A DNA stretch of 64,000 bases from an uncultured archaeon (GTDB lineage: Archaea; Asgardarchaeota; Lokiarchaeia; Sigyniarchaeales; SOKP01), in contig CAZDTP010000018.1 of the NCBI GenBank assembly GCA_964508365.1, positions 113 to 64,112 of the forward strand. Reading direction: 5' to 3'. The notes beneath the pieces were generated by a model, which was not told the DNA's origin, ran no database searches, and worked only from the letters and a program-made list of their open reading frames with translations. The position numbers and the translations under genes are program-made. This document shows positions 57,089 through 60,159 of this stretch, in pieces (the stretch's first letter is position 1; each line of letters opens with the position of its first letter).

Positions 57089-58236
57089 GAAATCCAGCGA
57101 TTTTAGAATCTAGAGCACATACATTTTATGTGAAAAAAAAAGGAATCCCTAAAGGATGTCAACAATGTTTAAAGGGTGCCAAAGCAGTATTATTTCTTAA
57201 TGGAATCTGCCAGAATCCAAAACATTGTTGGTGGTATTGTCCGATTTCTGAAAAACGAAAAGGTAAGAAAGATACCTATATAAACGAGATTCAAATATCT
57301 TCTAAAGAGCAGATACTACATGAAATCAAAGCTATTAATGCGAAAGGCATGAGTATTACAGGTGGAGAGCCATTATTTGAACCCAACTTAAAAAAAACGC
57401 TAGAATATATCAAATTCATCAAAGAAAATAAAGGAAAAAAGTTCCATATTCACCTTTACACCAACGGTCTTAATTTTAACGAAGAAATTGCGGCAAAACT
57501 CGCTCGAGCAGGGTTAGACGAAATTAGATTCAACCCTGCAAAAGAAAATTGGAATGTGATTAAATACGCATTAAACAAGGGTATGTCCGTAGGAGCTGAA
57601 GTTCCTGTGATTCCAGATGTGGAATATATAGAAAATTTGAAAAAATTCATCTTTTATGTGAATAAAATAGGTGCAGATTTTATTAATTTGAATGAATTTG
57701 AATATACTTTGCCAAATAGCCAAAACCTTAAGGACCGAAATTTTAAGTTGGAAGCAGGTACAATAGCATCTGTAAAGAATAGTAAAGAATGTGCAATTAA
57801 ACTCATACATGATATCCTTCCATATGTTTCAATAAAAATTCATTTTTGTACGATTATAGCTAAGGATTATTGGCAATTGAGAGAAAGATATTTAAGACGT
57901 GCAAAAACTATTAAATTACCATACGAAGAAATCACGAGAGATGGTTTGCTATTATACGCTCAAATAGAAGGCGAGAAGAAGGACATTAAAGCGTTTTATA
58001 ATCTTTTATTAAATGAGCTAAAAATCCCTCAAAACTTCTTATCTTACGAAATAACTTATATTAAATTACCCATAAAGTTTGCTTTGAAAGAATTTTTTAT
58101 GGATTTACTAATTCAACATAATTTAAAAGGATATATAATAGAAATGATACCGTTTCGAGAAGAAATATATCAACAAATAACGGAAAAAACACCTATAAGG
58201 TTATTCAAAGAAGAGATGGGACTAAATGATTATTGA
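57085..58236 (+). CDS. Radical-SAM-like protein
   Basis: Cys cluster CQNPKHCWWYCP, SITGGEPL, TIM-barrel-like length. The Cys spacing is non-canonical (C-x5-C-x3-C). Confidence 0.55.
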   Translation: MRNPAILESRAHTFYVKKKGIPKGCQQCLKGAKAVLFLNGICQNPKHCWWYCPISEKRKGKKDTYINEIQISSKEQILHEIKAINAKGMSITGGEPLFEPNLKKTLEYIKFIKENKGKKFHIHLYTNGLNFNEEIAAKLARAGLDEIRFNPAKENWNVIKYALNKGMSVGAEVPVIPDVEYIENLKKFIFYVNKIGADFINLNEFEYTLPNSQNLKDRNFKLEAGTIASVKNSKECAIKLIHDILPYVSIKIHFCTIIAKDYWQLRERYLRRAKTIKLPYEEITRDGLLLYAQIEGEKKDIKAFYNLLLNELKIPQNFLSYEITYIKLPIKFALKEFFMDLLIQHNLKGYIIEMIPFREEIYQQITEKTPIRLFKEEMGLNDY

Positions 58237-58672
58237 TACAGTCACTCTTAAAGATTTAGATGAAATTTACAATTTAGAAAGACAATATTTCAAGAAAGAC
58301 TCATTTTCAAAAGAATTAATTTTTAATTTGATAAAAACGAACACATTTTTTTTTAAGCTTATCGATGACGAACTATCGAATAATATTATAGGGTTCATCA
58401 TTATTATTCAAGATCGAGAAGAAAGATTAAACTTGATTAACTTTTTAATTAGAAAGGGGGAAAGAAAAAGAGGTTATGGGAGTTCTCTTTTAAGATATAC
58501 TCTGAAAAAAGTAATAGCATTAGATAAGATAAAAACAATTATATTGAATGTGAACTCTAAAAATAAAGCTGCTATAAGCTTGTATCAAAAATTTAATTTT
58601 CAGATTGTCGAAAGAATAGAAAATTATTATCGGGACAAGCAAAGCGCTTACTTAATGATATTGAACGTTTAA
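58226..58672 (+). CDS. rimI: GNAT N-acetyltransferase (RimI/Ard1-like)
   Basis: R..G.G..LL acetyl-CoA motif (RKRGYGSSLL) and N..A..LY.K.GF. Overlaps the previous gene by 11 nt. Confidence 0.7.
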   Translation: MIIDTVTLKDLDEIYNLERQYFKKDSFSKELIFNLIKTNTFFFKLIDDELSNNIIGFIIIIQDREERLNLINFLIRKGERKRGYGSSLLRYTLKKVIALDKIKTIILNVNSKNKAAISLYQKFNFQIVERIENYYRDKQSAYLMILNV

Positions 58673-58782
58673 TCATTTTCTAAAAACCAAGACTTATAAA
58701 TAAATTCTATTATAAATTTTGTATAGAAAGCATTGATAATGTGTTCAAAAAAAGGAAACAAAAATAAAAGTATTGAGTGATT

Positions 58783-58938
58783 ATGACGCCCTTAGGTACC
58801 GAATTAAAAGATGAAATTAAAAAAGGTGTTACTCTCCAAAAGGTTGACGAGGAAGATATGAAAAAACGTGAAGAAGAGAAAAAGAAGCGAATGGAAGAAT
58901 TAGAAAAAGTTAAAGAAGCCTTAGGAGCAAAAGATTAA
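58783..58938 (+). CDS. 51-aa WH2 / beta-thymosin-like mini-protein (candidate actin-monomer binder)
   Basis: Own translation: MTPLGTELKDEIKKGVTLQKVDEEDMKKREEEKKKRMEELEKVKEALGAKD. Residues 7-20, LKDEIKKGVTLQKV, fit the WH2 pattern L-x3-I-x2-G-x2-L-[KRQ]-K-[VT]. Same strand as its neighbours. Below the ORF-track cut-off. Confidence 0.45.
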   Translation: MTPLGTELKDEIKKGVTLQKVDEEDMKKREEEKKKRMEELEKVKEALGAKD

Positions 58939-59085
58939 ATTTTATCTGTTTTTTGTATTTATTATTTTTTTTCTTTATTCTTAGTTTAACTCACAAATCC
59001 CCAAGCAAAATGCAATTTAAGTGTGTTAAACTTAATTGTTAGTGTTAATTATAAAAATTTAGGAATTTTGAGTTTGAAGTGCCTA

Positions 59086-60159
59086 ATGAAAATTCTGGAT
59101 ATTGATAAGAAGGAGGAAACCATTTCATTAAGAACCGAAGATTTAAACGATCTATGGACACTCTATAATATTATTGCTAAAAATGACCACGTAACGGCAA
59201 GAACAAACCGTAGAATAGTTTTAAAAGAAGGTTCTAAAGGAGAAAGAAAACAAATGAAATTGAAAATAAATGTCGATTCTATTTCATTCCACGAGTTTTC
59301 AAATCGGTTAAGAGTAAAAGGAACTATCTTAGAAGGACCAGAGGATTTTGTTTCGTATGGGACATATCACACAATTAATATAGAACTAGGACTAAAATTA
59401 ACAATTAAAAAACCTAAGTGGTTAAATAGTGAGATTAAACGCCTTAGCAAATCGCCTAGATTTCAAACTGATTTTGTCATGCTAATAATAGCGATCGAAA
59501 CAGGGTTAGCAACAATCGCTCTTATTACAAATTATAGCCATAATAGAATCGCTACTGTAAAAAAAAACATCCCAGGCAAAAGATACGAGCAATCCTATCG
59601 AAACAAAGCTTATGAAGAATTCTATAGTGATATTAGCAACATAATTAAAGAAAAAACAGACAGTATAAACTTAAAAATCATTATAATATGTGGCCCTGGG
59701 AGCACAAAGGATCACTTAACACAATATATTAAAGAAAAAGCCCAAATAACGAGGTTACCGAAAATCGTAAACATTCAAGCTAGCTCTGGAACTGAAAGTG
59801 CAATCCTGGAAACTCTTAAATCAAAAGAACTCAAACTTCTAAAGAAAAATGTTAAAATCTTCCATGAAACTGAGAAAATTGAGGAAATTTTTCAGTTGTT
59901 TAGCACCAATTCAGATTTAATTGCAATTGGATTCGATGAAATCTCGAAAGCTATTGAAAAAAGAGCTGTAAAGGAACTTTTTTGTGCAGATATTCTTATA
60001 AGAGGTGCATCAAAAAAACAGAAATTAAGAATAGAACAATTATTAAACGGTGTAGAATCTTTAGGTGGAGAAATTCATATTTTAAGTAGCGAACACCCAA
60101 CAGGGCAACAAATAATTGATTTGGGATCTATCGTTGCTATTTTAAGATTTAAAATTTAA
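59086..60159 (+). CDS. pelA: Pelota (Dom34 homolog), mRNA surveillance/ribosome rescue
   Basis: MKILDIDKKEETISLRTEDLNDLWTLYNII is a typical Pelota N-terminus, followed by eRF1-like central and C-terminal domains. Start set at ATG 59086 rather than the upstream GTG of the track. Confidence 0.85.
   Translation: MKILDIDKKEETISLRTEDLNDLWTLYNIIAKNDHVTARTNRRIVLKEGSKGERKQMKLKINVDSISFHEFSNRLRVKGTILEGPEDFVSYGTYHTINIELGLKLTIKKPKWLNSEIKRLSKSPRFQTDFVMLIIAIETGLATIALITNYSHNRIATVKKNIPGKRYEQSYRNKAYEEFYSDISNIIKEKTDSINLKIIIICGPGSTKDHLTQYIKEKAQITRLPKIVNIQASSGTESAILETLKSKELKLLKKNVKIFHETEKIEEIFQLFSTNSDLIAIGFDEISKAIEKRAVKELFCADILIRGASKKQKLRIEQLLNGVESLGGEIHILSSEHPTGQQIIDLGSIVAILRFKI

What the first reader, a model, noticed from the sequence alone, without database searches (positions are those of the whole stretch)
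58783..58938. Unlisted 51-aa ORF with a near-consensus WH2 / beta-thymosin-like actin-binding motif
Between the rimI-like gene and pelota, on the same strand, an ATG ORF encodes MTPLGTELKDEIKKGVTLQKVDEEDMKKREEEKKKRMEELEKVKEALGAKD.

Residues 7-20 (LKDEIKKGVTLQKV) match the eukaryotic WH2 signature: a short amphipathic helix, then L-x-K-V/T. From memory, compare WAVE LLSAIRQGFQLRRVEEQRE and MIM LLAAIRRGVKLKKT. The acidic/basic continuation after the motif also matches.

Size and charge resemble beta-thymosins. The rest of the window looks Asgard-like, a lineage known to encode actin, profilin and gelsolin-like proteins. To my knowledge a free-standing WH2 mini-protein is not an established part of that toolkit.

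Caveat: this is a short motif in K/E-rich sequence and could be fortuitous.
Basis: partly seen in the sequence, partly recalled or inferred. Interest (0 to 1): 0.85.

Follow-up and report, generated by a model that had tools for sequence, protein, structure and literature searches.

The report
Asgard mini-protein with WH2/thymosin-like actin motif
A 51-amino-acid protein, conserved across one lineage of Asgard archaea, has the predicted shape and a sequence motif of the small eukaryotic actin-binding units called WH2 and β-thymosin, and the same motif turns up repeated and fused to profilin in related archaea, so it is a good candidate for an archaeal actin-monomer regulator, though binding has not been shown.

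Summary
An ATG ORF at 58783-58938 (+) encodes exactly the stated 51-aa protein. It lies between a rimI-type GNAT and pelota. It is a real gene under strong purifying selection: orthologs are 71-94% identical, dN/dS is 0.04-0.2 and most differences fall at third codon positions. The family is restricted to a subset of Asgard archaea: 63/68 genomes of the window's GTDB family and 6/7 of the sister order, out of 301 Asgard genomes sampled, and its gene order is conserved. AlphaFold predicts a short N-terminal helix (res 4-15), an extended linker (16-22) carrying the invariant I12/G15/V16/L18 and the near-invariant K20/V21 ('I-x-x-G-V-x-L-x-K-V'), and a long E/K-rich C-terminal helix (23-46). That layout is WH2/β-thymosin-like. 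A profile built from the Asgard family finds WH2 domains as its best matches in the PDB (N-WASP, Spire, VASP, WIP). A broader profile search shows the same motif in tandem-repeat proteins (up to 8 copies), fused C-terminally to an Asgard profilin domain (fold confirmed), and fused to an LRR domain. This modular use mirrors how WH2 is used in eukaryotes. Verdict: likely an Asgard WH2/β-thymosin-like G-actin-binding peptide; not proven.

The parts
58783..58938 (+). CDS of the 51-aa WH2/β-thymosin-like mini-protein (ATG..TAA)
   Evidence: conserved ORF under purifying selection
58792..58827 (+). N-terminal amphipathic helix (res 4-15; L8 near-invariant, I12 invariant), the putative actin hydrophobic-cleft helix
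   Evidence: AF2 model H4-15, pLDDT ~72-92; conservation
58816..58845 (+). WH2-like core I-K-K-G-V-T-L-Q-K-V (res 12-21), aligning with N-WASP 'I-R-Q-G-I-Q-L-K-K-V'
   Evidence: HMM alignments to N-WASP/MIM/Spire WH2; invariant I12 G15 V16 L18
58849..58920 (+). long E/K-rich C-terminal helix (res 23-46) with conserved R29, R36, M37, E39, K42, A46, G48; the β-thymosin-C-helix-like part, or a single α-helix spacer
   Evidence: AF2 H23-46; conservation
58226..58672 (+). upstream neighbour: rimI-type ribosomal-protein S18 alanine N-acetyltransferase (GNAT), always adjacent
   Evidence: TIGR01575; synteny
59023..60159 (+). downstream neighbour: pelota (true start probably ~res 22), always adjacent
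   Evidence: TIGR00111; synteny
58940..58989 (+). T-rich tract right after the stop; could be an archaeal intrinsic terminator
   Evidence: sequence; not tested

Best explanation
The gene encodes a lineage-specific Asgard (Lokiarchaeia/Promethearchaeota) actin-monomer-binding mini-protein of the WH2/β-thymosin type. [quoted passage not shown] The extended linker with the L18-x-K20-V21 motif would run up the front of the actin monomer. The long E/K-rich C-terminal helix would reach toward the pointed end or serve as a rigid spacer. A peptide that covers both ends would sequester Lokiactin monomers, and one that does not would deliver them to filament ends, regulating the monomer pool like β-thymosin or a free WH2. 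Shown: the gene is real and conserved; its predicted layout; its profile's preference for WH2 sequences; and the same motif used as tandem repeats and fused to an Asgard profilin. Inferred: actin binding itself and sequestration versus delivery.
For: Real, conserved gene: dN/dS 0.04-0.2 with third-position-biased changes; 219 close homologs, all Asgard; conserved gene order GNAT–X–pelota–radical SAM across two Asgard orders. Invariant residues I12, G15, V16, L18 fall on the WH2 signature positions, with K20 and V21 near-invariant. Profile of the family vs the PDB: top hit N-WASP WH2 repeats (E 0.001), then MIM WH2. Broader profile: N-WASP 1e-7, Spire 7.8e-4, N-WASP 2.7e-3, Spire 0.13, VASP 0.16, WIP 0.36; the only non-WH2 hit in the top 7 is a synthetic coiled coil. 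AF2 model: helix 4-15, linker 16-22, helix 23-46, mean pLDDT 80.7. Nearest named language-model clusters are β-thymosin (PF01290) clusters, scores 0.88 and 0.87. The motif recurs as 4-8 tandem units in 217-497-aa Asgard proteins, like the multi-repeat β-thymosins or the WH2 arrays of Spire and Cobl. It is fused C-terminally to a domain whose AF2 model's best Foldseek matches are Odin and Loki profilins (E 1.1e-6; Pfam Profilin E 2.5e-4). The genome encodes Lokiactin and gelsolins, including a 2-domain gelsolin with a 'TLLKDV' WH2-like linker, a motif class already shown to touch actin in Asgard 2DGel crystal structures (PMC9433394).
Against: Pfam's curated WH2 (PF02205) and Thymosin (PF01290) HMMs do not detect the protein even at E ≤ 10. 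The profile-to-WH2 E-values are modest and partly come from summing several weak repeats in a multi-WH2 PDB chain (per-repeat i-E 0.3-20). The WH2 helix match is partial: K9 replaces a usual hydrophobic residue. The C-helix starts straight after the linker, unlike Tβ4, which has a Pro-containing extended segment. Foldseek and VIA find no structural match, only generic helices, though WH2 peptides are unstructured alone. No actin-binding prediction was obtained. No expression evidence. Constant adjacency to rimI and pelota points instead to translation.
Confidence: 0.45

Rival explanations
1. A small ribosome- or translation-associated protein. Its constant adjacency to rimI (the acetyltransferase of ribosomal protein S18) and pelota (ribosome rescue) suggests co-regulation with translation quality control. 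The charged C-terminal helix could bind rRNA or ribosomal proteins, like eukaryotic small K/E-rich ribosome-associated proteins. The WH2 resemblance would then be chance.
For: Gene order rimI–X–pelota conserved in every f1 locus examined and in two order-f2 genomes. K/E-rich C-terminal helix.
Against: The same motif unit is used outside this context: tandem repeats and fusions to profilin and LRR domains, at loci without translation genes. In one order-f2 genome the homolog is not next to pelota. No PDB ribosomal-protein hits. Gene-order conservation within one family can simply be inherited.
Confidence: 0.2
2. A conserved helix–linker–helix protein of some unrelated function, for example a partner of a coiled-coil protein or a regulator of another cytoskeletal or ESCRT component. 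Its WH2-like linker motif arose by convergence or chance in K/E-rich sequence and says nothing about actin.
For: Pfam WH2/Thymosin models do not recognise it. The motif is short and the PDB E-values are modest. The structure searches give only generic helices.
Against: The invariant positions coincide with the WH2 signature. The best PDB matches are almost all WH2 proteins rather than the abundant coiled coils. The language-model nearest named clusters are thymosins. The motif is fused to profilin, an actin-monomer binder.
Confidence: 0.3
3. The ORF is a non-coding artefact.
For: None beyond its small size.
Against: dN/dS 0.04-0.2 and third-position-biased divergence; called as a gene in public records; present in 63/68 genomes of its family.
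Confidence: 0.02

Closest known systems
Eukaryotic WH2 domain (WASP/N-WASP, WAVE, MIM, WIP, Spire, Cobl; Pfam PF02205)
   Same: An N-terminal amphipathic helix followed by an extended I-x-x-G-hydrophobic-x-L-K-K-V/T linker: the Asgard core I-K-K-G-V-T-L-Q-K-V aligns with N-WASP's I-R-Q-G-I-Q-L-K-K-V. WH2 proteins are the best PDB matches of the family profile. Like WH2, the motif is used modularly: alone, in tandem arrays, and fused to other domains.
   Different: Pfam's WH2 model does not detect it. One helix position that is hydrophobic in WH2 is K9 here. It has no proline-rich or acidic partner regions. It is archaeal and mostly a standalone 51-aa protein. Binding to actin is untested.
β-thymosins (thymosin β4, Ciboulot, tetrathymosin; Pfam PF01290)
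   Same: A small (40-50 aa) free-standing charged protein with an N-helix–linker–C-helix layout. Multi-repeat forms exist in both (cf. Ciboulot and tetrathymosin). The language-model nearest named clusters are thymosin clusters.
   Different: Linker L-Q-K-V rather than L-K-K-T-E-T. No Pro-containing extended segment before the C-helix. The C-helix is longer (24 res) and starts immediately. Pfam's Thymosin model does not detect it. Sequestering activity is untested.
WH2-like linker motifs of Asgard two-domain gelsolins (LRRV/LKHV/LVDV/LKDV; PMC9433394, bioRxiv 10.1101/2025.11.30.690169)
   Same: An Asgard L-x-K/D-V motif that in crystal structures lies on the actin face. The window's own 2DGel carries 'TLLKDV'.
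   Different: Those motifs are linkers between gelsolin domains. This one is a separate small gene with its own N- and C-helices.
Asgard profilins (Loki/Odin/Thor/Heim profilins; PDB 5yee, 5zzb, 5zza)
   Same: Related proteins in other Promethearchaeota fuse this motif C-terminally to a domain whose best structural matches are these profilins.
   Different: The window's protein has no profilin domain. The profilin fusion is a different architecture seen in other genomes.

Membership tests
WH2 domain (PF02205) | Recognised by the curated WH2 HMM | tested here: not met
   No WH2 hit at E ≤ 10 in the Pfam scan of P0001 or in the own-genome scan with PF02205. A related Asgard protein, P0282, reached only E 0.2.
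WH2 domain (PF02205) | N-terminal amphipathic helix followed by an L-K-K-V/T-type extended linker | tested here: met
   Predicted helix 4-15 then linker 16-22. Invariant I12, G15, V16, L18 and near-invariant K20, V21 align with N-WASP and MIM WH2 sequences. One WH2 hydrophobic helix position is replaced by K9.
WH2 domain (PF02205) | A profile of the candidate family preferentially retrieves known WH2 proteins | tested here: met
   The best PDB matches are N-WASP (E 0.001; 1e-7 with the broader profile), MIM, Spire, VASP and WIP WH2 chains. No reversed-profile control was run.
WH2 domain (PF02205) | [quoted passage not shown] | not testable with these tools
No biochemical data.
β-thymosin (PF01290) | Recognised by the curated Thymosin HMM | tested here: not met
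   No hit for the window gene.
β-thymosin (PF01290) | ~40-45 aa free-standing protein: N-helix, LKKTET linker, C-terminal helix, with multi-repeat variants | tested here: inconclusive
   The 51-aa layout is helix–linker–helix and multi-repeat Asgard relatives exist. But the linker is LQKV not LKKTET and there is no Pro-containing segment. The nearest named language-model clusters are Thymosin, a lead only.
β-thymosin (PF01290) | Sequesters G-actin (blocks polymerization) | not testable with these tools
Asgard 2DGel gelsolin WH2-like linker | Motif sits between two gelsolin domains | tested here: not met
   The window protein has no gelsolin domain. The organism's own 2DGel carries a separate 'TLLKDV' motif.
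Ribosome-associated small protein (rival) | Co-sediments with or binds ribosomes | not testable with these tools
   Only gene-order adjacency to rimI and pelota.

The most novel reading that the evidence does not exclude
The Asgard family is a true homolog of eukaryotic WH2/β-thymosin actin-binding motifs, not a convergent look-alike. If so, this module existed before eukaryogenesis in the same modular forms eukaryotes use: free-standing mini-proteins, tandem arrays, and fusions to an actin-binding domain (profilin). Profilin–WH2 fusions would be an archaeal invention for handing profilin-bound actin to filament ends.
Probability: 0.25. Interest if true: 0.85.

Novelty: new variant of a known kind. 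Interest (0 to 1): 0.6.

Why it matters
Asgard archaea are the closest prokaryotic relatives of eukaryotes. Profilins, gelsolins and actin are known in them, but free-standing WH2/β-thymosin-type monomer regulators are not reported in the literature searched. If this family binds Lokiactin, then part of the eukaryotic actin monomer-buffering machinery (thymosin-like sequestration, WH2-mediated monomer delivery) predates eukaryotes. That would make the origin of the WH2 motif directly testable with a cheap synthetic peptide. The profilin fusions and tandem arrays would also show that the modular WH2 design principle, not just single motifs, was already present.

Tried and rejected
The job was counted, so no binding verdict exists.
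2. Structure searches of the peptide model:
- Foldseek PDB found no match.
- VIA-align wide found only generic helices, Z about 4. This is uninformative; WH2 peptides are disordered unless bound.
3. Pfam scans:
- Pfam WH2, Thymosin and Profilin models on the own genome: Profilin found nothing, but Asgard profilins are known to be divergent, so this was uninformative.
- DUF3006 weak hit (E 0.12), below its cutoff: disregarded.
4. Expression: runs search and read laying. The only RNA run's contigs cover just the poly-T tract after the stop, so there is no evidence for or against transcription.
5. The promoter/terminator scan was not above shuffled expectation.
6. The word-index search for longer or fused relatives found none at E ≤ 0.01. 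This is weak evidence: the fused forms were found only with the profile.
7. Considered and rejected: a TMA7/SERF-like ribosome-associated family, recalled from memory. No such hit appeared in the PDB or Pfam searches, and these sequences were not typed in for testing.
8. No reversed- or shuffled-profile control of the WH2 PDB result could be run without typing long sequences.

Full report
What is there. It sits between a rimI-type S18-alanine acetyltransferase (58226-58672, TIGR01575) and pelota (59023-60159, TIGR00111). The window is from an Asgard genome: 4.07 Mb, 149 contigs, GC 31.8%. That genome encodes a Lokiactin 96% identical to a Promethearchaeota actin and several gelsolin-domain proteins.

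The gene is real. A single-sequence search found 219 homologs at 71-94% identity, all 49-51 aa and all from Asgard MAGs. Public records call these orthologs as genes. They sit in a conserved block: 270-aa protein – NTP transferase – radical SAM – GNAT – X – pelota – radical SAM. Against Loki, Promethe- and 'Thor'/'Hod'-labelled loci, dN/dS is 0.04-0.2 and most differences are at third codon positions, so the protein is under strong purifying selection. Across 301 Asgard genomes the family is found in 63/68 of the window's family and 6/7 of the sister order, and essentially nowhere else sampled. In two genomes of the sister order the GNAT–X–pelota order is kept.

Anatomy. Across 121 orthologs, I12, G15, V16, L18, R29, R36, E39, K42 and G48 are invariant, and K20 and V21 are near-invariant. 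AlphaFold2 with the ortholog alignment (pLDDT 80.7) predicts helix 4-15, an extended segment 16-22 (V-T-L-Q-K-V-D) and a long E/K-rich helix 23-46. The core I12-K-K-G-V-T-L-Q-K-V21 matches the WH2 signature I-x-x-G-[I/V]-x-L-K-K-V/T at every invariant position. In a genome-wide six-frame scan the exact pattern occurred in only 4 of 8,347 ORFs.

Link to WH2 and β-thymosin:
- A profile of the family, searched against 177,635 distinct PDB sequences, ranks N-WASP WH2 repeats first (E 0.001) and MIM WH2 among the next.
- A broader profile that adds the repeat and fusion units (A4) ranks only WH2 proteins in its top 7, apart from one synthetic coiled coil: N-WASP (1e-7), Spire (7.8e-4), N-WASP (2.7e-3), Spire, VASP and WIP.
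- The nearest language-model clusters that carry a named Pfam family are two β-thymosin (PF01290) clusters, at scores 0.88 and 0.87, which counts as a lead.
- Against this, Pfam's curated WH2 and Thymosin HMMs do not detect the protein.
- Structure search finds only generic helices.
The link is therefore one-directional and modest. It is consistent with a distant or convergent WH2/β-thymosin-like motif, not proof of family membership.

The motif is modular, as WH2 is in eukaryotes. A profile search of 1.8 billion representative proteins found 54 proteins. Most are standalone 37-74-aa relatives. Others:
- Tandem-repeat proteins of 217-497 aa with 4-8 units each (P0242 from a Promethearchaeota MAG, P0294, P0288, P0289).
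- A C-terminal unit on an LRR domain (P0284).
- Units after an N-terminal domain in P0269 (Promethearchaeota) and P0270. AlphaFold models this domain as a profilin fold, and its best Foldseek matches are Odin and Loki profilins (E 1.1e-6) and yeast profilin, ahead of roadblock domains.
The organism's own two-domain gelsolin carries a 'TLLKDV' WH2-like linker. Motifs of this class touch actin in Asgard 2DGel crystal structures (PMC9433394), and 'LKDV' was noted in Promethearchaeota gelsolins (bioRxiv 10.1101/2025.11.30.690169). In the literature searched, no free-standing Asgard WH2/thymosin peptide and no profilin–WH2 fusion is reported.

Mechanism, mostly inferred. [quoted passage not shown] The conserved L-x-K-V segment would run up the front of the monomer, and the long C-helix would either reach toward the pointed end (sequestration, as in Tβ4) or act as a stiff E/K-rich spacer. 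The tandem and profilin-fused forms suggest the same unit is reused to hold several monomers or to pass profilin-actin on, as in eukaryotic nucleators and elongators. Only the conservation, the predicted layout, the profile preference for WH2 and the modular use are shown. No expression evidence could be found.

Rivals. The fixed neighbours, rimI and pelota, allow a translation-linked small-protein role (about 0.2). But the same motif occurs at loci with no translation genes, fused to profilin and LRR. A convergent, non-actin helix–linker–helix protein remains possible (about 0.3), given that the Pfam models do not detect it. An artefactual ORF is excluded by the selection data.

Verdict. The best reading is a lineage-specific Asgard WH2/β-thymosin-like G-actin-binding mini-protein (confidence about 0.45). 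A synthetic-peptide actin assay would decide it quickly.

Noticed in passing
P0287 (Asgard metagenome protein, 120 aa): The WH2/thymosin-like unit is fused after an N-terminal region that weakly matches ribbon-helix-helix-type NikA-like/DUF6290 (E 0.002, below cutoff). An odd architecture, possibly DNA-binding plus actin motif.
   Followed up: no
P0284 (Logan contig protein, 425 aa): A strong LRR domain (LRR_14, E 2e-36) followed by a single WH2/thymosin-like unit at residues 289-342.
   Followed up: partly
window 59023-60159 (pelota ORF): The pelota ORF as listed starts at GTG 59023, but the NCBIfam match begins at residue 28 and orthologs are 357 aa. The true start is probably about 60 nt downstream.
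   Followed up: partly
orthologs P0003, P0048, P0072, P0075: JGI names these 51-aa orthologs 'multidrug resistance efflux pump', an obvious misannotation.
   Followed up: no
orthologs P0039, P0084, P0114, P0120: Near-identical orthologs in identical gene order carry NCBI labels Hermodarchaeota, Hodarchaeota, Thorarchaeota and Promethearchaeota. MAG taxonomy labels seem inconsistent; GTDB sampling puts the family in one family and its sister order.
   Followed up: partly
window 58700-58740: AT-rich stretch with TATA-box-like 'TTATAAAT'/'TTTGTATAG' about 45-80 nt upstream of the ATG. It could be the small gene's own archaeal promoter. Not tested with an archaeal promoter model.
   Followed up: no
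window 58940-58989: Long T-rich tract immediately after the stop codon, typical of archaeal intrinsic termination. This suggests the small gene may end its own transcript.
   Followed up: no
genome G000 contigs C38 and C47 (loci L017, L018): Withheld stretches read as X in long ORFs, so parts of the genome are masked.
   Followed up: no
L019 721-1737 (-) (G000:C21): The organism's two-domain gelsolin carries a 'TLLKDV' WH2-like linker, like the Promethearchaeota 2DGels reported elsewhere.
   Followed up: partly
G000 genome: Seven actin-family loci, the best a Lokiactin (L005 1495-2640 -, 96% identical to a Promethearchaeota actin). Only one copy of the WH2-like mini-protein family and no detected tandem or profilin-fused version.
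   Followed up: partly
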